Virus record (IMG/VR): IMGVR_UViG_2925891887_000008
Source of the DNA: a virus
Lineage: Duplodnaviria; Heunggongvirae; Uroviricota; Caudoviricetes
Reading direction: 5' to 3' (one strand)
DNA length: 38,557 nucleotides
Shown piece after piece: positions 15,313-31,725 of the stretch. The notes under the pieces are model-generated. The model did no database searches, had not been told where the DNA came from, and saw only the letters and a program-made list of their open reading frames with translations. The position numbers and the translations under genes were made by a program. The number at the start of each line of letters is the position of its first letter. The first letter of the stretch is position 1.

Positions 15313-16083
15313 AGGGAAAGGTTGCCATCAATAGCAAGCAGTAGACAGCCTTTGTAATTGTATTAGACATAGAACAAATGCCTTTCAATGGTCTGCGTTA
15401 GAGCATTAATACGTTGCAAAAGGTCGAATGACGTTGCGCAAGTTAAGAAGTTCAATGCTCTTAAAAAAGCACTTGAAAGCAACGCCTTTAATTATTAAAA
15501 GCCAATTAATTTAGGCGGTTACTATGTTATCTTTGACACAAAAGATGTTTATTGACAATATATAAGTTCAATCTAACAAGGAGAAAAATTATGCCAAATG
15601 AAAATCTTGATATTGACTCAAGGACTACCGAGCAATTATACGAATGGTATTTGCAAGGAAATTTGATAGTCAATAGACGTTATCAAAGGAAACTTGTATG
15701 GTCTCTAGAAGAAAAGACTTCTTTAATATCTTCTATGCTGCAACAATATCCTATTCCGTTATTATTATTTGTTACCATCAATGAACAAAGAGAAATATTG
15801 GATGGAATGCAAAGATTAGAAGCAATTATGAGCTTCATCGAACAGAGATTTTCATTAGATGGACAATATTTTGATTTGGACTCTATAGCTTTAACAAAAC
15901 AACTTAAAGATAATGGAACTTTAATTCAGAAAGAACCAATCCTTTCCCGTGATTCTTCAGCAATTATTGCACGTTATCGATTTGCAATATCAGAATATAG
16001 CTCCACAAATGAAAATATTGACGAAGTATTCAGACGAATAAACTCAAACGGGAAGATTTTATCCAAACAAGAATTACGTAGTG

Positions 16084-16092
16084 CAGGAACAG
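16084..16092. repeat. IS1 target-site duplication, left copy (CAGGAACAG)
   Basis: Identical 9-mer immediately flanks both IS1 ends. Confidence 0.85.
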
Positions 16093-16147
16093 GGTGATGC
16101 TGCCAACTTACTGATTTAGTGTATGATGGTGTTTTTGAGGTGCTCCA

Positions 16148-16423
16148 GTGGCTTCTGTTTCTATCAGCTGTCCCTCCTGTTCAGCTACTGACGGGGTGGT
16201 GCGTAACGGCAAAAGCACCGCCGGACATCAGCGCTATCTCTGCTCTCACTGCCGTAAAACATGGCAACTGCAGTTCACTTACACCGCTTCTCAACCCGGT
16301 ACGCACCAGAAAATCATTGATATGGCCATGAATGGCGTTGGATGCCGGGCAACCGCCCGCATTATGGGCGTTGGCCTCAACACGATTTTCCGCCATTTAA
16401 AAAACTCAGGCCGCAGTCGGTAA
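16148..16423 (+). CDS. insA: IS1 InsA
   Basis: 91-aa [26 protein letters not shown]... typical of InsA. Confidence 0.85.
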
Positions 16424-16845
16424 CCTCGCGCATACAGCCGGGCAGTGACGTCATCGTCTGCGCGGAAATGGACGAACAGTGGGGATACGTCGGGGCTAAA
16501 TCGCGCCAGCGCTGGCTGTTTTACGCGTATGACAGGCTCCGGAAGACGGTTGTTGCGCACGTATTCGGTGAACGCACTATGGCGACACTGGGGCGTCTTA
16601 TGAGCCTGCTGTCACCCTTTGACGTGGTGATATGGATGACGGATGGCTGGCCGCTGTATGAATCCCGCCTGAAGGGAAAGCTGCACGTAATCAGCAAGCG
16701 ATATACGCAGCGAATTGAGCGGCATAACCTGAATCTGAGGCAGCACCTGGCACGGCTGGGACGGAAGTCGCTGTCGTTCTCAAAATCGGTGGAGCTGCAT
16801 GACAAAGTCATCGGGCATTATCTGAACATAAAACACTATCAATAA
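16342..16845 (+). CDS. insB: IS1 InsB frame (expressed as InsAB' by -1 frameshift)
   Basis: -1-frame ORF overlapping the insA 3' end; slippery A6C at 16399-16405. Confidence 0.8.
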
Positions 16846-16860
16846 GTTGGAGTCATTACC

Positions 16861-16869
16861 CAGGAACAG
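16861..16869. repeat. IS1 target-site duplication, right copy (CAGGAACAG)
   Basis: Identical to 16084..16092. Confidence 0.85.
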
Positions 16870-18187
16870 TTAGTAACTTCTCTGAACTGGTCAGATCGAT
16901 ATCAACATCGATCAGAGGTGATACTAGCCATTCTGACATTATGAATCTCCAGCAAATGCACAAAATTTCAATCAGTAACGATAGATTGGAGTACGGGGTA
17001 AATATCGATAACCACTTTTATATAAAACATCATATTTTAACAAGACGAAGTATTCGTGATTCTGATGACGAGGAATTGATAGCCAATATCCTTGCATATA
17101 TCAGTCTAGAAGAAAAACCCACATCTGGGTCAACTTCTCTCGACACATTCTATGGTCAAGGAAACTCCTCTCATGCTCATGGTGTCAGACAGCAATTAGA
17201 GTCTTTCATTCAAACCAATAACGCTGCCACTATTAAGCAGAATTTCATAGCTGTATATGAATTAATTACAAGCCTATATGACGGAAAAAATGATACTTTT
17301 AGAAGCCATATTTTAGGGGAGGATAATTCATCTCAAGAATGCCCTCGTTATTATCAAGCTGTGTTTTTGTCTATTTATGAACTTCTTTTCAACCAAAATA
17401 TGCAATTAATTGATAAAGAAGGTTTATTCTCGCAATTAAAAAACACTGGCAATACCATAATTATGGTTACCGATGGTGGCCGCTGGGCTGCAAGCACTCG
17501 TGAAAAAAGTGTTAATGATCTTGTTGCATTAATAAGTCGTTACTTCCAACCTGCTCCTCAAAAGTATGTGAATCATGCTTGGGTAACTGAAATTCGCAAT
17601 CTATTAACAAATTCTAGAACTGAACAACCAAGTTATGATTTCAAACAAGGGTTCTTTAATTTATCAGGTAAAAATGAATTTGATGATGAATGTTTAAAAG
17701 GAATATTACAAACTTGCGTAGCAATAAATAATATTGGAAAAAGCGCAAAAGGCTATATTTTAGTTGGTATTGCCGAAAATAAATTAACCGCAGATAGAAT
17801 TCAACATTTATATGGAGTAAATTCAATTGAGTTCAATGGGTTCTATATAAACGGAATTGATCATGAAGCAATGTTAGTCTCTGGTAGCATTGATGATTAC
17901 TTTATGTTAATAAAACAAAAAATACAAGGATACAATTTCACTGAAACTCTAAAACAGCAGATACTTAAGAATATTGAGTTTTGCTCTTACAATGGCTTAC
18001 ACATACTCAAGATAACTATTCAGAGCACAGGTCAAATTTGCGACTTTGAGAATATGTTTTATATCAGACAAGGCTCATCGACTGATCCAGTTACGGATAC
18101 ACAAAAAATCTCAGCTCTATTTAACTCTTACATGAACAGCTAATCAATCGCCATCTCCACTGGAGCTGGCTTATGGATAAAAACAAA

Positions 18188-23792: not shown

Positions 23793-25559
23793 ATGAACAC
23801 CACACTGACACTCGCAGATCTCGATCCCCGTCGGCAGGCCATGCTGCTGTACTTTCAGGGATACCGCGTAGCCCGCATTGCTGAAATGCTGGGCGAGAAA
23901 GTTTCAACCGTTCACAGCTGGAAAAAACGCGACAAGTGGGGTGACTATGGGCCGCTGGATCAGATGCAGCTCACCACCGCCGCACGCTACTGCCAGCTCA
24001 TTATGAAGGAGCACAAAGAAGGGAAAGATTTCAAAGAGATTGACCTGCTGGCGCGCCAGTCGGAACGCCACGCGCGGATCGGCAAGTTTAACAATGGCGG
24101 CAACGAAGCCGACTTAAACCCTAACGTCGCCAACCGCAACAAAGGCCCACGCCGTCAGCCGGAAAAGAACGTTTTCACCGATGAACAGATTGAGAAGCTG
24201 GAAGAAATCTTCCATTCCTCCATGTTCAACTACCAGCGCCACTGGTGGGAAGCTGGAAAAACCAACCGCATCCGCAACCTGCTGAAGTCACGCCAGATCG
24301 GCGCGACCTTTTACTTTGCCCGTGAAGCCCTGATTGACGCCCTGCTTACCGGACGTAACCAGATTTTCCTTTCCGCCAGTAAGGCACAGGCTCACGTCTT
24401 TAAGCAGTACATCATCGACTTCGCTAAAGAAGTGGAGGTGGAGCTGAAAGGCGATCCGATGGTGCTTCCTAACGGGGCCACGCTTTACTTCCTCGGCACC
24501 AATGCCCGCACGGCCCAGAGTTATCACGGCAACCTGTATCTGGATGAATATTTCTGGATACCGAAATTCCAGGAGCTGCGCAAAGTGGCTTCCGGTATGG
24601 CTATTCACAAAAAATGGCGACAAACCTATTTTTCCACGCCATCCAGCCTGACACACAGTGCTTATCCGTTCTGGTCCGGTGCGCTGTTCAACCGTGGGCG
24701 CAACAAAGCCGATAAGGTGGACATCGACCTGTCCCACAGCAATCTGGCCCCCGGCCTGCTGTGCGCAGACGGGCAATACCGCCAGATAGTCACCGTAGAA
24801 GATGCGGTGCGCGGCGGCTGTAACCTGTTCGACCTTGACCAGTTGCGCATGGAATACAGCCCGGACGAATACCAGAACCTGCTGATGTGTGAGTTCGTGG
24901 ACGATCTCGCGTCCGTGTTCCCGCTCAGCGAGCTGCAGGCGTGCATGGTGGACAGTTGGGAAGTCTGGACCGACTTTCATGCACTGGCCCTGCGCCCGTT
25001 TGGCTGGCGCGAAGTGTGGATCGGTTATGACCCGGCAAAAGGTACGCAGAACGGCGACAGCGCCGGATGCGTGGTGGTGGCACCGCCAGCCGTGCCGGGC
25101 GGTAAGTTCCGCATTCTTGAGCGTCACCAGTGGCGCGGAATGGACTTCCGCGCCCAGGCTGACGCCATCAAAAAACTGACCGAACAGTATAACGTGACCT
25201 ATATCGGCATCGACTCGACCGGCGTCGGTCACGGGGTTTACGAGAACGTGAAAGCGTTTTTTCCTGCCGTCAGGGAGTTTGTCTACAACCCCAACGTTAA
25301 AAACGCCCTGGTACTCAAGGCCTACGACATTATCAGCCACCGCCGTCTGGAGTTTGACGCCGGGCACACCGACATTGCGCAGTCATTTATGGCAATCCGT
25401 CGCGCCACCACCGCCAGCGGCAACCGCCCGACCTATGAAGCCAGCCGCAGCGAAGAAGCCAGCCACGCCGATCTGGCCTGGGCAACGATGCACGCATTGT
25501 TTAACGAACCGCTGCAGGGCGAATCCGCCAATACCAGCAATATTGTGGAGATTTTTTGA
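23793..25559 (+). CDS. P: Terminase ATPase (large) subunit P
   Basis: 588-aa ORF; N-terminus MNTTLTLADLDPRRQAMLLYFQGYR... typical of P2-family P. Confidence 0.9.
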   Translation: MNTTLTLADLDPRRQAMLLYFQGYRVARIAEMLGEKVSTVHSWKKRDKWGDYGPLDQMQLTTAARYCQLIMKEHKEGKDFKEIDLLARQSERHARIGKFNNGGNEADLNPNVANRNKGPRRQPEKNVFTDEQIEKLEEIFHSSMFNYQRHWWEAGKTNRIRNLLKSRQIGATFYFAREALIDALLTGRNQIFLSASKAQAHVFKQYIIDFAKEVEVELKGDPMVLPNGATLYFLGTNARTAQSYHGNLYLDEYFWIPKFQELRKVASGMAIHKKWRQTYFSTPSSLTHSAYPFWSGALFNRGRNKADKVDIDLSHSNLAPGLLCADGQYRQIVTVEDAVRGGCNLFDLDQLRMEYSPDEYQNLLMCEFVDDLASVFPLSELQACMVDSWEVWTDFHALALRPFGWREVWIGYDPAKGTQNGDSAGCVVVAPPAVPGGKFRILERHQWRGMDFRAQADAIKKLTEQYNVTYIGIDSTGVGHGVYENVKAFFPAVREFVYNPNVKNALVLKAYDIISHRRLEFDAGHTDIAQSFMAIRRATTASGNRPTYEASRSEEASHADLAWATMHALFNEPLQGESANTSNIVEIF

Positions 25560-26626
25560 TGGGAAAGAGTAAGAAGAACCGCGCTGCGGCGACGAAACAG
25601 ATCCAGCTTAAAAGCCAGACTACAGCCGAAGCATTCAGCTTCGGCGATCCCGTTCCTGTTCTGGACCGCCGAGAACTGCTGGACTATGTGGAATGCGTAC
25701 AGATGGACCGTTGGTATGAGCCGCCCGTCAGCTTTGACGGACTGGCGCGCACCTTCCGCGCTGCCGTGCATCACAGTTCCCCGATTGCAGTAAAGTGCAA
25801 CATTCTGACCAGTACCTATATCTCTCATCCACTGCTCAGCCAACAGGCTTTTTCGCGTTTTGTGCAGGACTATCTGGTATTTGGTAACGCCTACCTGGAG
25901 AAACGCACGAATCGATTCGGTGAAGTTATCGCCCTTGAGCCTGCGCTGGCAAAATACACCCGACGCGGGTTAGACCTGGATACCTACTGGTTTGTGCAAT
26001 ACGGTATGGCCACGCAGCCGTATCAGTTCACGAAAGGCAGCATTTTTCATCTGATGGAACCGGACATCAACCAGGAGATCTACGGCCTGCCCGGTTATCT
26101 TTCAGCCATTCCGTCCGCCCTGCTCAATGAGTCCGCCACGCTGTTCCGTCGAAAGTATTACATTAACGGCAGTCATGCTGGCTTCATCATGTACATGACC
26201 GACGCTGCGCAGAACCAGGAGGATGTGAACAACCTCCGCAACGCGATGAAAAGCGCCAAAGGTCCAGGCAACTTCCGCAATCTGTTTATGTACTCGCCTA
26301 ACGGCAAAAAGGACGGACTTCAGATTATCCCGTTGTCAGAAGTCGCAGCGAAGGATGAGTTTCTGAATATCAAGAACGTGAGCCGCGATGACATGATGGC
26401 TGCGCATCGTGTGCCGCCACAAATGATGGGGATAATTCCCCAGAACATCGGCGGCTTTGGGGATGTAAGCAAAGCAAGTAAGGTATTTGTTCGTAACGAA
26501 CTGACGCCTTTACAAAGGCGAATACAAGAACTTAATGAGTGGCTATGTGACGAGGTTATCAAGTTTGACCCCTACAAACTTGATATTGAAGATAACAATC
26601 ACTCTGCTATCATACCTATCATCTAA
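25556..26626 (+). CDS. Q: Portal protein Q
   Basis: 356-aa ORF overlapping the P stop (ATGA). Confidence 0.9.
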   Translation: MMGKSKKNRAAATKQIQLKSQTTAEAFSFGDPVPVLDRRELLDYVECVQMDRWYEPPVSFDGLARTFRAAVHHSSPIAVKCNILTSTYISHPLLSQQAFSRFVQDYLVFGNAYLEKRTNRFGEVIALEPALAKYTRRGLDLDTYWFVQYGMATQPYQFTKGSIFHLMEPDINQEIYGLPGYLSAIPSALLNESATLFRRKYYINGSHAGFIMYMTDAAQNQEDVNNLRNAMKSAKGPGNFRNLFMYSPNGKKDGLQIIPLSEVAAKDEFLNIKNVSRDDMMAAHRVPPQMMGIIPQNIGGFGDVSKASKVFVRNELTPLQRRIQELNEWLCDEVIKFDPYKLDIEDNNHSAIIPII

Positions 26627-26631
26627 ATTTC

Positions 26632-26655
26632 AACCGCCATCAGGCGGTTTTTTGT
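26632..26655 (+). terminator. Intrinsic terminator after Q
   Basis: AACCGCC-ATCA-GGCGGTT hairpin followed by TTTTTTG. Confidence 0.6.
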
Positions 26656-26710
26656 TTCCAAACCAAACCTACTATGATACACACAGTAGGAAAAAAATTG
26701 GAGCATTTAT

Positions 26711-27337
26711 ATGGATATCGAAAAGCTAAAAGAATTTTACGAAAAACTTTACTTTCAGGAAACGGAAAATAAAGACAAGATTTACAACAGAATTCAAATG
26801 ATATTTGGATTAATAGTAATCGACGCAACTATCGTAACATATCTGCTTAAAAACACATCCTTTGAAAATCATGCATTCTTTGCCTGCATTGTTATAGGAC
26901 TTTCATTATTATCAGTGTTTTTTATTTATAAAGCCTGCATGCTCCTAAAAAAAGCATTTTGGGGTAATGAATTCAAATACATTCCCAAACCTAAGGAAAT
27001 AGACGAATACTACAATGGCCTCATTAAATATGAAGCAGACTATAAAAAATATTGTGATAATAATGGGCTTACCTATAATGGTGAGCACTCATCAAGTAAA
27101 AAGTTCAATGAATACTTAGTAAAACAACTAGTAGAGTGTACTAGTTGGAATACTAAGAAAAATGAAATGAGAACAAGTCAAATATATCGAGCCACTAAAT
27201 TCTTTTTTTTCTCACTAATTCCATTAGTGATAGCGGTTGGCTTTTTTTTAGCGATGGATCTCGATTCAGCCTCGCCAAGGAAGACTAATGAGCCACATTT
27301 CATTATTATACCTGTAGATAATATCAGGAGATTATGA
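26711..27337 (+). CDS. AT-rich cargo membrane protein (208 aa, about three TM helices), unknown function
   Basis: RBS GGAG, ATG at 26711; hydrophobic segments at about residues 30-46, 55-73 and 164-182. Confidence 0.5.
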   Translation: MDIEKLKEFYEKLYFQETENKDKIYNRIQMIFGLIVIDATIVTYLLKNTSFENHAFFACIVIGLSLLSVFFIYKACMLLKKAFWGNEFKYIPKPKEIDEYYNGLIKYEADYKKYCDNNGLTYNGEHSSSKKFNEYLVKQLVECTSWNTKKNEMRTSQIYRATKFFFFSLIPLVIAVGFFLAMDLDSASPRKTNEPHFIIIPVDNIRRL

Positions 27338-27462
27338 TGGGAAAAGCCCCTACACCTAACAAGCCACCAGCGAAGACTCCAACTCCGCCGACACCGCCGA
27401 CACCGCCTAAATCTAGGCTAGTGAGAGACGATGATTCGAAAGCCAAAAGCAAAAGAGGTTAA
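27334..27462 (+). CDS. Proline-rich micro-protein a (42 aa; KTPTPPTPPTPPK core, SRLVRD motif)
   Basis: ATG overlaps the upstream stop (ATGA), RBS AGGAG; 9-bp in-frame repeats. Confidence 0.4.
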   Translation: MMGKAPTPNKPPAKTPTPPTPPTPPKSRLVRDDDSKAKSKRG

Positions 27463-27468
27463 AGTATC

Positions 27469-27642
27469 ATGATAAAGCCCAGCAACGAAGGAACTGGAAA
27501 ACCAAATTCTACAAGTAAATCACCTGTACCGCCTCAGCCGCCTCAGCCGCCTCAGCCGCCTCAGCCGCCTCAAACAAGGTTAGTACGAGAAAGCTTTGGA
27601 GAATACATTTCAAAGAGAGATACGAAAAATGACAAAAAATAA
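27469..27642 (+). CDS. Proline-rich micro-protein b (57 aa; (PPQ)5 core, TRLVRE motif)
   Basis: RBS AGAGG, ATG at 27469; (CAGCCGCCT)x4 tandem repeat. Confidence 0.4.
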   Translation: MIKPSNEGTGKPNSTSKSPVPPQPPQPPQPPQPPQTRLVRESFGEYISKRDTKNDKK

Positions 27643-27736
27643 CGAGCAAAAACCACCACCACCACCACCACCACCACCACTACCACCATCGTCCCGCATG
27701 CTATTTGATCACGCGGCCCCCCCTAAGAAGAAATAA
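27629..27736 (+). CDS. Proline-rich micro-protein c (35 aa; P9-L-PP core, SRMLFD motif)
   Basis: ATG at 27629 overlapping the end of b; (CCA)n tract. Confidence 0.35.
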   Translation: MTKNNEQKPPPPPPPPPLPPSSRMLFDHAAPPKKK

Positions 27737-27778
27737 CCTTAAGCCTGCGACTTAGCAGGCTTTCTTCATTAGCGCGCG

Positions 27779-27797
27779 CTCGTATCCCCGCCACGCC
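27779..27797. other. Candidate cos site (19-nt cohesive end)
   Basis: CTCGTATCCCCGCCACGCC closely resembles my recollection of the P2/186 cos core (complement GGCGTGGCGGGGA...); lies between Q and A as expected. Confidence 0.35.
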
Positions 27798-28139
27798 TGC
27801 CCGCTTTATGTAGTGGTTTTCATGCAGGTGCATGATCTACGCAAAAGCCCGCCAGTTCTGGCGGGCCTTAGCAAAAACGATCCTCAAACGATCATGCAAT
27901 CTCATGCAGCATAGACATGCACAGACGAGTAAAGCGAATCGGACTTTACGCAAGGTGAACTCCTCAGCGGGCATAATCAGTATGTCGGAAGATCTCTAAA
28001 AATGAATAATTCGGTTAACAGGTATGCTTACAAAAGCATATATTTGATTAAAAATCATGTAAGGGGGAGGATCTCAAACTGAATCGCCACGGGTTTTACA
28101 AATTTCGATAGTCTCTCTAACGTTTCGGCTGAGGTCAAA

Positions 28140-28565
28140 ATGAAAAGCTTTTACGTATTAATTTTAATTCTGGTTGCAAGCTTTGTTAGCGTCCCAGTTC
28201 AGGCGGTAACAGCTAAAAACTATGAGAAAGGAACTAAAGCTCAACAGAAATCAATATCTTACCTTTCATGTGCATTCTATGGCAGTAGCACACAATTAGA
28301 TCCTAGCTACACGGAGCAAGTACCTACAGCCGATATCAAGATATTACAGAAAGCAGCTTACCACGCTTACAACGATGCGCTCTCATACTTTGGCTATGAG
28401 GAACCAGATCACGAACAACGCATAATTGATTATGCTGAATTTGTGGCGTCGCAAGAAGCTGTGTTATGGGATAAGCCGGGAATGAATGGAAAGCAGGTAA
28501 CACTAATTGCTCGTTCTCTCTACAATGAGAGTAACTGTAACTTGTTACTGGACTCAATTAAGTAG
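28140..28565 (+). CDS. AT-rich cargo secreted protein (141 aa, Sec signal peptide), unknown function
   Basis: RBS GAGGT, ATG at 28140; N-terminal hydrophobic signal with ...VQA/V cleavage-like site. Confidence 0.5.
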   Translation: MKSFYVLILILVASFVSVPVQAVTAKNYEKGTKAQQKSISYLSCAFYGSSTQLDPSYTEQVPTADIKILQKAAYHAYNDALSYFGYEEPDHEQRIIDYAEFVASQEAVLWDKPGMNGKQVTLIARSLYNESNCNLLLDSIK

Positions 28566-28724: not shown

Positions 28725-28958
28725 TTAATGCAGCCAGCTGTCGTCTTCCCACACCTTCTGCATAATCTTCATCACTTGTTTTCTTTCTTCGTCCAGTTGC
28801 AGTCCGGTCAGTTCCACACCGTTAGAGCTACCTTTGCGGATGCGAATTACCGTTTTGGGATACAGGGGGCGCAGATTGCGGTAAAGCTCGGATTCAAGGG
28901 CGTCCAGGGTAGACTGGCTAATCTTCTGCTCTTTATCGATCATTATTTCAATGCGCAT
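28725..28958 (-). CDS. dinI: DinI-family protein (DNA-damage-inducible protein I-like)
   Basis: MRIEIMIDKEQKIS...LDALESEL...KVWEDDSW parallels E. coli DinI; start taken at the internal Met. Confidence 0.75.
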   Translation of the reverse strand: MRIEIMIDKEQKISQSTLDALESELYRNLRPLYPKTVIRIRKGSSNGVELTGLQLDEERKQVMKIMQKVWEDDSWLH

Positions 28959-29310: not shown

Positions 29311-31725
29311 TTAATACAGGTTTCGCCACTTATCATCTTCCTGCAAACGCTGGTTCCGATAGAAGATACGCAGGCCTGCTCCTGACGGAATACTGCCGCC
29401 GCGAAGGAGTAAATCGACCTCTTTCTCGCTGCCATTAAATCCTCTGGACTTCAGTTCATAGACGAGCTGCTGTCGCTGATGGTCTGTAATTCGCTGTTTG
29501 TAGTCTTTACGCCGTTTCGGTTTCACCAGGCGTAACCTTGCAGCCAGTTCCCGGCGCTCTTTTTTGCTCATACTGTGCAGGTAATCGTGCAACTCCTTGT
29601 CATCCATGCGGGTAATGTCCGTCCTAGTATCCCCATCAGCTGATTTGTCTTTCCCTTGTTGGTTCAAATTTTCAGCAAGGGGACAGTTATTGCCACGAGT
29701 CCAAGGGGCGCAAGCGCCCTGGTCGGCTGCCGCCTCCTGAACGTCAACGGCCTTACGAACCATTTTCCACTTCACCGCATGAGTGCAGATCTTGCCCTCT
29801 GCAATGGGTGACCAGATGCCATAAATACGAATACCGTGATCGCCATATGCGGTCGGTTCTTCGTTGATTTCATAAGCAGTTCTGATGAGGTGATATTTGC
29901 GGGGAACCAGTACGCCTCCCTGCTTCATGATGTAGGTGGCAAAACAACCAGCATCGGCAGCAGCCAGGATTGCATCAAGGCGCGGGTTATCCAGTACCGG
30001 CGCACCTGCTTTTTTGTCCCCCTGTTGCCTTGCCGCCTGACCAGCCAGCAATCGCAGTTCACGGTAAGCCTGACGCCCCGGAATGCCAAAGAAGCGGAAT
30101 TGCTGAACACGATGCAGAGACGCCCAGGCATTAACGTATTCAGCGTTATCACGCAGGGATTTACCCGTTTCCTTGCTGATCTCGCCAGCCAGACCACGCC
30201 CGTCAATGTTCTTACTGATGTATTTCGCGATGTAGCTTGTTGGCGTACCTTTGCGCGGGTTTATCAGCTCAGACTTAAAGCGTGGTCCCGTGTTATTACC
30301 CAGCTCCTCGCGGTCTTCACGAATGGCAAACTTACGCAACAAAGCAGTAATGGTGCGGCGATCTTTTTTGCGCATAAAACACAACAGGTGCCAGTGAACT
30401 GTACCGTCATGATGCGGCTCAGCCACCCGCACGCCATACCAGCGCAATCCGGCTTTGTGCATCGCCTTACGAAATGCAGCAAACATGCCGACCAGATAAT
30501 CACTGCTTTGTCTTACCGTCGTATTTGTCCAGGTCGGGTTGGGCCTGCCGTTATTTAGCGTGGAATGGAAACGTGACGGACAGGTGATGGTGTAGAAAAC
30601 GGCGCAGTCACCGCGCATTTCCGCGATAAGCTCCAGACCTTTAACACAGGCCATCATCTCATTGCGGCGATGCGCAGGGTTGCTGCTGCTGGCGTTTACC
30701 ACATCCTCCATGTCCAGCGTGTCGCCGTCTTCGTTCACCAGTTCATGAGAACGGAAAAACTCCAGCGACTTACGGCGCTGCTCACGTTTATGCATCATGG
30801 CTTCATAGCTGACATAGGGAGATGCTTTTTTGCTGACCAGGCAAACAGCACGCAACTGCTCTTCCCGCCATTCGCAACGCATCTTCCATAATTTCCGGTA
30901 CCACCAATCGGCGCACAACATACGCGCCAGCGAACCCGGAATGAGTTCATAGGGCACGGGTTTACGGCGGTTTCTTTTCCGGCGGAGTTGCTCAAACGCA
31001 GGCGGTATGACATCCAGTCGCAGGGTTTCTGCTGCCACCTTTTCCCATGTCTTGCGGATTTCTTCTGGCTTAACGTCATCGGTGGCATACAAATCGCCAC
31101 AAGCTGCATCAAGGCACATGCTCATATGCGCAGCAACAAGGGTGGACAGGCGTTTCACCTGATCCTGACTCATTTCAGGCAGAATCAGCAGGCCGTCCAG
31201 CCCTTCATGGCTTGCCATAAAGCGAAAAGAAGTGGATAGCTGACTGTCGCGTACATGCTCCAGCCGTTCCAGACATGGCTTAATCGTCTCACGTAAATAG
31301 CGGGAATAAGCCTTTGGCCTGCCAAGGCTGCTGAAGTATTCAATACGTTGCATCAGCGGCCTGCTGATATGGGAAGGCTGGGCGTTAACGTCTGCCAGAA
31401 TGACCATGTCCGGGTTAAAACGCTGCTGCTCATGCGCCAACTTTGCCCGGCTAATGAACTTATCCTGCTCCATTTCGCGCTGGACAGGATCACGGGATTC
31501 ATTAAAGAAATAACGCTCCCAAACCTGATCACTCAGTGCCTCGCGGCGCAGTTGTTCCTGCTCGTTATCGGCAGCGTACAGAGTGATCAGGTTTGAAAGC
31601 GCAGAAACCGGCGCAACTTCCGCCGGGTCCAGATAAGGGTTAATAGCCTTTTTCGGGCTGTTCCATGAGAATGCTGCGGCGGCCTCGTTAAAGCCGCTGC
31701 AGTTGTTCATATCAGCATGGCTCAT
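29311..31725 (-). CDS. A: Replication initiation endonuclease A (rolling-circle)
   Basis: 804-aa ORF at the P2 gene A position, upstream of cos. Confidence 0.85.

What the first reader, a model, noticed from the sequence alone, without database searches (positions are those of the whole stretch)
26629..27740. Q-to-cos cargo module: three-helix membrane protein followed by three tandem paralogous proline-rich micro-ORFs
Immediately after the Q terminator sits an AT-rich 208-aa membrane protein. Its stop overlaps the start of the first of three consecutive small ORFs (42, 57 and 35 aa), each with its own Shine-Dalgarno sequence. All three share one architecture: a Lys-rich N-terminus, a proline-rich repeat core of a different flavour in each (TPTPPTPPTPP; PPQPPQPPQPPQPPQ; PPPPPPPPPLPP), a conserved post-repeat motif [ST]-R-[LM]-[VL]-[RF]-[DE], and a basic C-terminal tail. 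I know of no described P2 gene or defence system with this organisation. Hypotheses: ribosomally made proline-rich effector peptides (bacterial analogues of proline-rich antimicrobial peptides) with the membrane protein as exporter or immunity partner; EF-P-dependent translational sensors; or disordered adaptor proteins. ORFs a and b share a frame and are separated by a single TAA, so a stop-interrupted longer gene is an alternative.
Basis: partly seen in the sequence, partly recalled or inferred. Interest (0 to 1): 0.8.

Follow-up and report, generated by a model that had tools for sequence, protein, structure and literature searches.

The report
Membrane protein with three polyproline microproteins
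A P2-like prophage carries a small, self-contained operon for an inner-membrane protein plus three unannotated proline-rich microproteins; all four are conserved, selected genes of a large uncharacterised family found in anti-phage hotspots, and their function is still untested.

Summary
Between the portal gene Q and cos lies an AT-rich unit with its own promoter-like element and terminator. It holds a 208-aa membrane protein gene and three tightly coupled micro-ORFs of 42, 57 and 35 aa.

Relatives whose membrane protein is only 47-75% identical keep the micro-ORFs, each with its own Shine-Dalgarno site (two loci, one with a truncated membrane gene, lack one of the three). In some relatives the ORFs overlap in different frames. 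Their dN/dS is mostly 0.04-0.4, against 0.06-0.16 for the membrane gene. So they are genes, not debris and not one interrupted gene.

A profile search shows the membrane protein belongs to a large unnamed family (1160 clusters). In many members a proline-rich module with the same post-proline motif sits in frame at the C-terminus, usually behind a conserved internal Met. That Met has a Shine-Dalgarno site in 5 of 6 loci checked. The window's cassette is therefore a split, triplicated form of that module.

The core is weakly similar to PycTM/SLATT/CBASS two-TM defence effectors (inconclusive). Relatives sit in the P2 gpA-gpQ defence hotspot or beside restriction and SIR2 genes. My best guess is a membrane effector regulated by its microproteins, working in phage exclusion. 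This is unproven.

The parts
26632..26649 (+). Intrinsic terminator of the P-Q late operon. It marks the upstream boundary of the cassette.
   Evidence: A 7-bp stem with 5 GC pairs plus a T-run. A hairpin plus T-run is kept at the same place in most diverged loci.
26668..26690 (+). Promoter-like region overlapping a 9-bp inverted repeat. It contains a TATGAT / extended -10-like element at about 26673-26683. This reading is inferred, not shown.
   Evidence: In an alignment of 10 upstream regions, TGnTATGTT-like sequence is the best conserved block between the terminator and the start codon. The simple promoter scan did not call a full -35/-10 pair here.
26711..27337 (+). Gene for a 208-aa all-helical membrane protein with three hydrophobic helices. 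Conserved features are the YEKxYF N-terminal helix, the WGNEFKYxP juxtamembrane segment, the NxxxNxxR helix and the DLDxxSPRK motif after the last hydrophobic helix.
   Evidence: ORF and GGAG Shine-Dalgarno site. Homologues and conservation. dN/dS 0.06-0.16. AF2 model with pLDDT 78.7, four long helices. Hydropathy. Family of 1160 clusters at 50% identity.
27334..27462 (+). Micro-ORF a, 42 aa. It has a TPPTPP-type repeat core followed by the motif SRLVRDDDSKA and a basic tail. Its start overlaps the membrane gene's stop (ATGA).
   Evidence: AGGAGA Shine-Dalgarno site. Orthologues in 10 other loci, with invariant R, V and D in the motif. dN/dS 0.06-0.42. Profile match to the family's C-terminal module, Prob 91.6%.
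27469..27642 (+). Micro-ORF b, 57 aa. It has a PPQ repeat core followed by the motif TRLVRESFG and a basic tail.
   Evidence: AAGAGG Shine-Dalgarno site lying inside the 3' end of a. Orthologues in 11 loci. dN/dS 0.12-0.42, with one pair at 0.79. PPQ unit number varies from 2 to 5 between near-identical strains. Profile match to the family module, Prob 96.7%.
27629..27736 (+). Micro-ORF c, 35 aa. It has a run of nine prolines followed by the motif SRMLFDH and a KKK tail. It overlaps b by 14 nt in another frame.
   Evidence: Orthologues in 11 loci, with F, D and H nearly invariant. dN/dS 0.04-0.20. Profile match to the family module, Prob 95.9%.
27741..27762 (.). GC-rich hairpin that closes the cassette. 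It can act as a terminator on either strand.
27770..27830 (.). Probable cos region (context, not part of the cassette).
   Evidence: Resemblance to the P2 cohesive-end sequence is recalled from memory and was not tested. The stretch is conserved next to the cassette in diverged loci, where it shows up as the same short minus-strand ORF.

Best explanation
The region is a self-contained accessory operon ('moron') in the cos-proximal variable region of a P2-like prophage.

It encodes an inner-membrane helical protein of a large, unnamed family whose architecture resembles PycTM/SLATT/CBASS two-TM effectors. It also encodes three separately translated, intrinsically disordered proline-rich microproteins. 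The microproteins are detached, triplicated copies of a module that many family members carry in frame at the C-terminus. There the module sits behind an internal start site, so it is probably also made as a free peptide.

Proposed mechanism: each microprotein uses its short post-proline strand motif (R-hydrophobic-hydrophobic-x-D/E) to dock on the membrane protein. The likely docking site is the conserved juxtamembrane segment after the second hydrophobic helix. Docking would act as a latch or adaptor that controls the membrane protein. The unit as a whole would serve phage exclusion or abortive infection for the lysogen.

Shown here: the genes are real and under selection; a, b and c are paralogous; they are homologous to the family's C-terminal module; and the location is as described.

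Inferred: physical docking, regulation, and the anti-phage role.
For: Coding and selection:
- Diverged loci keep the micro-ORFs, each with its own Shine-Dalgarno site and ATG.
- dN/dS is mostly 0.04-0.4.

Link to the membrane protein:
- The ORFs are translationally coupled (ATGA overlap).
- In the enterobacterial 264-271-aa subfamily and in many of the 147 inspected representatives, a module (polar N-terminus, proline cluster, R/Q-x-I/V-x-E motif) is in frame after the DLDxSSPRK core end.
- Profile comparison of a, b and c with these tails gives Prob 92-97%.
- One distant member has both an in-frame module and a free downstream 40-aa copy.

Internal start:
- A Met precedes the proline cluster in 34 of the 40 representatives that have a strict proline cluster in the tail. 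Met frequency in the tails is 1.8%.
- That Met is at least 90% conserved in the enterobacterial subfamily.
- A GGAG-type site lies 6-9 nt upstream of it in 5 of 6 loci with DNA, although the encoded residues differ.

Docking lead:
- The AF2 model of an in-frame relative has only two beta strands. One is the juxtamembrane segment 86-89 and the other is the tail motif 249-252. The tail block has pLDDT 71 between flanks below 50.

Defence context:
- The cassette lies inside the gpA-gpQ region that PMC9122126 and PMC13586616 define as the main P2 defence hotspot.
- In-frame relatives sit in the same hotspot in other P2-like prophages, one next to an MrcB_N gene.
- A distant member sits beside a type III restriction system and a SIR2 gene.

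Effector resemblance:
- The weak PADLOC hits concentrate on PycTM (7, 7 and 3 members for the three models), RTasSLATT (3 and 1) and CBASS 2TM effectors, out of 135 members scanned. Other hits are singletons.
- The ESM Atlas gives a PycTM lead at 0.88.
- hhalign gives a collinear 127-column alignment with P = 4.5e-4.

Transcription:
- Two RNA-Seq runs of one study hold 0.86-0.91 of the sampled words.
Against: - No phenotype is known for any member.
- The PycTM/SLATT relation is weak: hhalign Prob 33%, no Pfam hit at threshold, and no cyclase or other sensor gene in the cassette.
- The positive-inside count (7.4 against 3.4 K+R over 97 members) puts the C-terminus on the side of the membrane opposite the juxtamembrane segment. 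In a truly fused protein the AF2 strand pairing would then be topologically impossible. It works only for a free cytoplasmic peptide.
- One in-frame relative (L034) lacks a convincing internal start.
- The hotspot also carries non-defence genes.
- The family is rare: about 12 carriers among 36,145 genera, and 19 of 5426 complete E. coli genomes. Context statistics are therefore thin.
Confidence: 0.4

Rival explanations
1. Translation gauge. The micro-ORFs matter chiefly because long proline runs are hard to translate. Their EF-P-dependent synthesis, or ribosome stalling on them, would report the state of the host translation machinery and set the level or activity of the membrane protein. This would be a fuse that blows when a phage disturbs translation.
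For: Proline runs of 6-11 residues occur in a, b or c of nearly all split loci and in many in-frame tails. There are three such ORFs in a row, each with its own start. Repeat number varies between near-identical strains, as expected for a tunable threshold. That polyproline needs EF-P is established knowledge (reviewed in PMC13602936, listed; not read in detail).
Against: The enterobacterial in-frame subfamily keeps the post-proline motif with only one PP pair. Purifying selection acts on non-proline residues of the motif and on the termini, so the peptide product itself is selected. Stalling downstream cannot directly regulate translation of the upstream membrane gene.
Confidence: 0.15
2. Same two-part architecture, but not an anti-phage system. 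The membrane protein and its microproteins would serve another lysogen or prophage function, for example envelope homeostasis, stress tolerance, or control of the prophage's own lysis or DNA entry.
For: No member has a phenotype. The hotspot tables list many hypothetical genes of unknown role. The cassette sits on the Q side of cos, apart from the variable genes on the other side, which differ between otherwise similar loci.
Against: It is repeatedly placed in the P2 defence hotspot and beside restriction and SIR2 genes. Its distribution is patchy and rare, like that of accessory conflict genes. It weakly resembles abortive-infection effectors.
Confidence: 0.2
3. Envelope-spanning tail. The proline-rich module is an extended periplasmic spacer, like those of TonB or the Rz1 spanin. 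Attached to the membrane anchor, it would reach the outer layers and block phage DNA entry (superinfection exclusion).
For: The positive-inside rule places the C-terminus, and hence an in-frame tail, in the periplasm. Proline-rich rods spanning the periplasm are known (own knowledge).
Against: The free microproteins of this window have no signal peptide, lipobox or hydrophobic segment, so they should stay in the cytoplasm. The conserved internal start sites in in-frame relatives point to a free cytoplasmic product.
Confidence: 0.1
4. Proline-rich antimicrobial-type peptides that target the ribosome or DnaK, with the membrane protein as exporter or immunity factor.
For: The peptides are short, cationic and proline-rich.
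Against: There is no PRP/Arg-rich pattern and no leader or export signal. The conserved element is a motif ending in an acidic residue. The module is in frame with the membrane protein in many relatives, which does not fit a secreted toxin.
Confidence: 0.03
5. Non-coding repeats or the decayed remnant of one larger gene.
For: a and b share a frame across a single TAA in this window. The cores are 9-bp and 3-bp DNA repeats. PGAP annotates none of the three ORFs in the E. coli records that carry this cassette.
Against: dN/dS is well below 1 in all three ORFs. Start signals are conserved. In relatives the ORFs overlap in different frames. Other gene callers do call them.
Confidence: 0.02

Closest known systems
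PycTM (Pycsar), SLATT-domain and CBASS '2TM' membrane effectors
   Same: They are small helical membrane proteins with the same order of elements: an N-terminal helix, a hydrophobic hairpin, a helical soluble insert and a last hydrophobic helix. They have a patchy distribution on mobile elements and in defence islands. Weak but recurrent HMM hits and a collinear profile alignment link them to this family.
   Different: No member reaches a curated threshold, and hhalign gives Prob 33%. There is no cyclase, reverse transcriptase or nucleotide-binding partner. None of the nine PycTM sequences I extracted has a proline-rich tail or partner microprotein.
P2 cos-proximal accessory genes (old, tin and the systems of Rousset et al. 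2022, PMC9122126)
   Same: The cassette occupies the same gpA-gpQ variable region. It is AT-rich and has its own promoter-like element and terminator.
   Different: It lies on the Q side of cos as a separate module. It matches no tested system. Its membrane protein appears only as 'hypothetical' in their tables, and the micro-ORFs are not listed.
Two products from one reading frame in small phage membrane-protein genes (lambda S105/S107 holin-antiholin; own knowledge)
   Same: In in-frame relatives, an internal Shine-Dalgarno site plus ATG inside the membrane-protein frame would give a second product.
   Different: The internal start is near the 3' end and would give a soluble 40-60-aa peptide, not an N-terminal variant. 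The gene is not in the lysis cassette.
Proline-rich antimicrobial peptides (oncocin, apidaecin, Bac7; own knowledge)
   Same: Similar length, proline content and net positive charge.
   Different: No Arg-Pro repeats and no secretion or processing signals. The motif ends in an acidic residue. The peptides are genetically fused or coupled to a membrane protein.
Short inhibitory peptides of membrane-active proteins (C-terminal autoinhibitory peptide of bacterial gasdermins; small antitoxins; own knowledge)
   Same: Only the proposed logic is shared: a short C-terminal or trans-acting peptide holds a membrane-active protein in check.
   Different: No sequence or fold relation, and no protease partner. 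Inhibition is not shown here.

Membership tests
PycTM (Pfam PF18967; PADLOC PycTM models) | Sequence match to the family model above the curated threshold | tested here: not met
   The window protein has no Pfam hit to PF18967 at E<=1. No consistent Pfam family appears among 135 members. PADLOC PycTM hits occur in only 7, 7 and 3 of 135 members, with best E = 2.8e-6.
PycTM (Pfam PF18967; PADLOC PycTM models) | Profile-profile homology to bona fide PycTM sequences | tested here: inconclusive
   hhalign of the 135-member alignment against 9 PycTM ORFs taken from PF18967 loci gave Prob 33%, P = 4.5e-4 and 127 collinear columns. The ESM Atlas lead is at 0.88.
PycTM (Pfam PF18967; PADLOC PycTM models) | Adjacent pyrimidine cyclase (PycC) that makes the activating nucleotide | tested here: not met
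   The unit holds only the membrane gene and three micro-ORFs between two terminators. No cyclase gene is called next to relatives.
SLATT / CBASS 2TM effectors | Match to SLATT or 2TM effector models, and association with SMODS/CD-NTase, SLOG or reverse transcriptase genes | tested here: inconclusive
   Weak hits: PDLC00669 at E = 2e-4 for the window protein; RTasSLATT in 3 and 1 members and several '2TM' models in 1-2 members each. No partner enzyme is present in any locus inspected.
P2 cos-proximal hotspot cargo | Located between portal gpQ and replication gpA of a P2-like prophage, variable between relatives, atypical composition | tested here: met
   Terminase and portal lie upstream, and the GPA-type replication gene lies at 29311-31725 on the minus strand. 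GC is 0.31. The hotspot is defined in PMC9122126 and PMC13586616. The protein is listed in their locus table.
Validated anti-phage defence system | Experimental protection against phage | not testable with these tools
   No experimental record was found in the papers searched.
Proline-rich antimicrobial peptides | Arg/Pro-rich PRP-type core, and a leader or other route out of the producer | tested here: not met
   The cores are TPP, PPQ or poly-P with few Arg. There is no hydrophobic leader (maximum 9-aa hydropathy <= 0.33) and no Cys.
o-spanin (Rz1-like) proline-rich lipoproteins | Lipoprotein signal peptide with a lipobox Cys | tested here: not met
   a, b and c have no Cys and no signal-like segment.
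EF-P-dependent polyproline ORFs | Three or more consecutive prolines; synthesis dependent on EF-P | tested here: inconclusive
   By direct reading, PPP+ runs are present in c (nine P), while a and b have PP pairs only. Relatives have long runs in all three. Dependence on EF-P cannot be tested here. The enterobacterial in-frame subfamily lacks long runs.

The most novel reading that the evidence does not exclude
A widespread but unrecognised two-part membrane system: a PycTM-like pore or effector whose regulator is a polyproline microprotein. The microprotein is made either from an internal start within the effector's own frame or from one to three separate downstream genes. Because it is short-lived and hard to translate, its supply would act as a fuse that reports phage interference with host translation. 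This would be a new sensing logic for abortive infection, and a conserved case of nested-gene coding missed by annotation.
Probability: 0.12. Interest if true: 0.85.

Novelty: new variant of a known kind. Interest (0 to 1): 0.68.

Why it matters
- Three conserved, selected genes are missing from the RefSeq annotation of every E. coli record inspected. The same hidden module, apparently with its own internal start site, recurs across a family of more than a thousand protein clusters that has no consistent Pfam or NCBIfam match.
- The cassette sits in one of the best-studied defence hotspots, yet it matches no tested system. It is a concrete, small (1.1 kb) candidate for cloning.
- If the microproteins gate a membrane effector, this would add a new kind of regulator to phage-defence biology: disordered, polyproline, possibly sensitive to translation.
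- It would also be a clean model for nested and split microprotein genes.
- If no phenotype is found, it is still a well-supported correction of annotation and a new protein family definition.

Tried and rejected
- Complex prediction of a, b and c with the membrane protein gave ipSAE 0.13 and 0.09, below the mark. That is no verdict either way.
- Fold searches with the AF2 model found nothing specific. Foldseek against PDB had nothing at E<=0.001 (BAR-like long helices only). Foldseek against BFVD had nothing at E<=0.001. VIA-align wide gave a best Z of 13.4 to trypanosome three-helix-bundle receptors, which is within the noise range stated for helical bundles.
- Family libraries gave little for the window proteins: no Pfam hit near any threshold, no NCBIfam hit, and only PHROG 36961, of unknown function.
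- Collection scans:
  - The pattern scan of species-representative genomes found no relative.
  - Only 1 of 401 Enterobacteriaceae species genomes matched.
  - blastn and tblastn against 50,697 phage records gave no match.
No strand, boundary or level of transcription could be read. The RNA evidence is only the word share in two runs of one study.
- The integrase-neighbour census was uninformative: fewer than 3 of 12 carriers.
- The window's own assembly is not held, so no genome-wide search for further copies was possible.
- A disulfide in the soluble insert was considered and dropped. Only one Cys is conserved across subfamilies.
- Clamp-binding, DnaK-binding and degron readings of the motif were considered from memory only. 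None could be tested, and none is claimed.
Full report
**1. What is there**

The window is a P2-like prophage. Terminase P (23793-25559) and portal Q (25556-26626) read rightwards. The replication gene of the GPA family lies at 29311-31725 on the other strand.

Q ends in a hairpin plus T-run terminator at 26632-26649. After it, GC falls from 0.5-0.6 to about 0.31. Then come:

| Feature | Coordinates | Notes |
|---|---|---|
| Membrane ORF | 26711-27337 | 208 aa; GGAG 7 nt upstream |
| Micro-ORF a | 27334-27462 | 42 aa; start overlaps the membrane stop as ATGA |
| Micro-ORF b | 27469-27642 | 57 aa |
| Micro-ORF c | 27629-27736 | 35 aa; overlaps b by 14 nt in another frame |
| Hairpin | 27741-27762 | closes the unit |

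Each micro-ORF has its own purine-rich site 6-10 nt before the ATG.

**2. The micro-ORFs are genes**

Near-identical copies occur in 13 of 5426 complete E. coli genomes. PGAP annotates only the 208-aa gene there. Four of the five copies I aligned differ only by whole 9-bp repeat units. One assembly also has a 1-nt deletion in an A-run inside c.

The decisive evidence comes from diverged relatives. Homologues of the membrane protein at 47-75% identity come from E. coli, Serratia, an Edwardsiella remnant, metagenomes and IMG/VR contigs. All are followed by the proline-rich micro-ORFs in the same order. Each ORF has its own Shine-Dalgarno site and ATG and its own flavour of motif:

- a: proline core, then R-(L/I)-V-x-(D/E)-D-D-S-K
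- b: proline core, then R-L-V-R-E-S-(Y/F)-G
- c: proline core, then R-x-(A/V/L)-F-D-H

In several loci a, b and c overlap one another in different frames. This excludes a single interrupted gene.

Pairwise Nei-Gojobori estimates give dN/dS of 0.06-0.42 for a, 0.12-0.42 (one pair 0.79) for b, and 0.04-0.20 for c. The membrane gene gives 0.06-0.16. Other gene callers have called some of these ORFs. The b orthologue exists in protein databases as 'hypothetical protein' with length variants of 58-64 aa.

Upstream, the terminator and a TGnTATGTT-like block about 35-40 nt before the start codon are the conserved non-coding elements. This fits an own promoter, but that is inferred.

**3. The key finding: the microproteins are a detached family module**

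One of 401 Enterobacteriaceae species genomes held a distant homologue of 265 aa. Its frame continues past the conserved DLDxxSPRK core end, through a linker, into a proline-containing segment that ends in a Q-V-V-T-E-S-Y motif like that of b.

This 264-271-aa form is a subfamily in Salmonella, Sodalis and metagenomes.

A profile search of 1.84 billion representatives then found 1160 clusters at E<=1e-3 and 341 at E<=1e-10. Many are 250-310 aa long. Inspection of the tails of the 147 listed representatives shows a recurrent design:

- a core of about 190 aa
- a helical linker
- a Met followed by a small or polar residue and acidic or Lys residues
- a proline cluster
- an R-x-(I/V)-x-E-type motif
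- a short tail

Profile comparison of the a, b and c alignments with 34 such tails, cut at that Met, gives Prob 91.6, 96.7 and 95.9% over collinear alignments. Proline bias inflates these numbers somewhat.

So the window's three ORFs are a split and triplicated version of a module that belongs to the membrane protein family. A very distant member has one in-frame module plus one free 40-aa copy downstream. Multiplication of the module is therefore not unique to this locus.

**4. A probable nested gene**

The Met before the proline cluster is present in 34 of the 40 representatives with a strict proline cluster, although Met makes up 1.8% of tail residues. It is at least 90% conserved in the enterobacterial subfamily.

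In 5 of the 6 in-frame loci for which I hold DNA, a GGAG/AGGAG/GAGG site lies 6-9 nt upstream of that ATG. The residues encoded there differ between loci.

I infer that the 'fused' genes also release the module as a free peptide from an internal start. One locus (L034) has no convincing site, so this is not universal.

**5. Structure and topology**

AF2 models the 208-aa protein as four long helices (pLDDT 78.7). Hydropathy gives three hydrophobic segments. Over 97 representatives with three such segments, K+R counts are 7.4 on the side of the N-terminus and central insert, against 3.4 on the other side. This predicts N-in, C-out.

In the AF2 model of an in-frame relative (pLDDT 68.9), the only two beta strands are the conserved segment just after helix 2 and the tail motif. 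The tail block has pLDDT 71 between flanks below 50. They must therefore pair with each other in the model.

The juxtamembrane segment corresponds to WGNEFKYxP in the window protein. There W, G, N, F, Y and P are invariant among close relatives.

This pairing is a lead, not a result. With three membrane helices, a covalently attached tail would be on the wrong side. A free cytoplasmic microprotein would not have that problem.

**6. What the membrane protein resembles**

No consistent Pfam or NCBIfam family matches. PHROG 36961, of unknown function, matches at 2e-17.

In PADLOC the window protein hits a CBASS '2TM effector' model at 2e-4. Among 135 family members, the only recurrent hits are PycTM (7, 7 and 3 members for the three models; best 2.8e-6), RTasSLATT (3 and 1) and 2TM effector models. 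The ESM Atlas gives a PycTM lead at 0.88.

I extracted nine PycTM ORFs from loci found with PF18967. None came from the unpublished genome G441. They share the same order of elements. hhalign against the family alignment gives a collinear 127-column match with P = 4.5e-4 but Prob 33%.

I treat homology as unproven and the architecture as similar. Fold searches returned only generic helical bundles.

**7. Context**

PMC9122126 and PMC13586616 define the gpA-gpQ cos-proximal region as the main defence hotspot of P2-like phages. The membrane protein appears in the first paper's locus tables as 'hypothetical' and was not among the systems tested.

In otherwise similar prophages, the genes on the far side of cos differ while this cassette stays next to Q. 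It is therefore a separate module.

In-frame relatives sit in the same hotspot in a Sodalis prophage and in a metagenomic P2-like contig beside an MrcB_N gene. Another sits in a Salmonella integrative element. A distant one sits beside a type III restriction system and a SIR2 gene.

The family is rare and patchy: about 12 carriers among 36,145 genera, and 13 + 6 of 5426 complete E. coli genomes for the two enterobacterial split types.

Two RNA-Seq runs of one study hold most of the sampled words of the region. I could not lay reads.

**8. Interpretation**

Firm:
- There are four real genes in one coupled unit.
- a, b and c are paralogues, homologous to the family's C-terminal module.
- The unit is P2 hotspot cargo.

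Probable (about 0.8): the microproteins act with or on the membrane protein. This rests on gene fusion or nesting, translational coupling and strict co-occurrence.

Plausible (about 0.4-0.5): the unit is a phage-exclusion or abortive-infection device with the membrane protein as effector.

Speculative (about 0.25): the motif docks as a beta strand on the juxtamembrane segment and latches the effector.

The translation-gauge idea remains open. It could coexist with the latch model: proline runs would make the supply of latch peptide sensitive to translation stress. But the motif, not the proline run, is what all subfamilies keep.

**9. Novelty and score**

I found no description of this family, of the microproteins, or of such an effector-microprotein pairing in the libraries and papers searched.

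In kind it is a small membrane-protein cassette in a prophage hotspot, which is a known kind of thing. Its partner module and its nested, split and multiplied encoding are new.

Interest is 0.68. The comparative evidence is strong, the experiment is clear, and a wider family is implicated, but function is unproven.

Noticed in passing
window 15552-18143 (+): Inside the tail-gene block, at what looks like the second (Z/fun) P2 hotspot, lie a 181-aa ORF matching GmrSD_N (E = 4e-19; probably a fragment of a DUF262-type nuclease) and a 400-aa ORF with a Schlafen AlbA_2 domain. This is likely another defence cargo.
   Followed up: partly
window 28140-28565 (+): On the other side of cos lies a 141-aa ORF with a signal-peptide-like N-terminus and no Pfam family. 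As WP_000834899 it recurs in 32 entries of the P2-hotspot table of PMC9122126. It is followed by a DinI-like gene (28725-28958, minus strand) and a 62-aa gene.
   Followed up: partly
window 27378-27410, 27522-27566 and 27655-27690: The proline cores are DNA tandem repeats (9-bp CCGCCGACA and CCGCCTCAG units, and CCA units). Their copy number differs between otherwise 99% identical E. coli strains: 2-5 PPQ units and 3-4 TPP units. Database variants of the b orthologue span 58-64 aa. This is possible contingency-like length tuning.
   Followed up: partly
L003 (E. coli PC-NDM34), at the position matching window 27629-27660: This assembly has a 1-nt deletion in the A-run just after the ATG of c, plus one extra CCA unit. 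This would shift c out of frame. It is either a homopolymer sequencing error or a natural phase-off variant. PGAP calls a minus-strand ORF there instead.
   Followed up: no
window 26668-26690 and 27125-27147: Two 9-bp-stem inverted repeats. One lies between the Q terminator and the membrane gene start, overlapping the promoter-like block, and could be an operator. The other lies inside the membrane gene.
   Followed up: no
L007/L008 (Serratia marcescens) and L029 (Edwardsiella tarda): Variant cassettes. The Serratia locus lacks a recognisable ORF a and lies away from intact phage genes, next to a transposase. The Edwardsiella copy has a truncated 171-aa membrane gene, keeps a and c, and lacks b. 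They look like decaying or transposed copies.
   Followed up: partly
L027 3001-4018: In one P2-like contig the same four-gene cassette sits after the ogr/delta gene, at the other end of the prophage rather than next to Q. The cassette therefore moves between phage accessory sites as a unit.
   Followed up: no
L056 1802-1924: A distant family member has an in-frame proline module and also a free 40-aa proline-rich ORF with an R-L-V-K motif directly downstream. Next to it are a type III restriction-modification pair and a SIR2 gene.
   Followed up: partly
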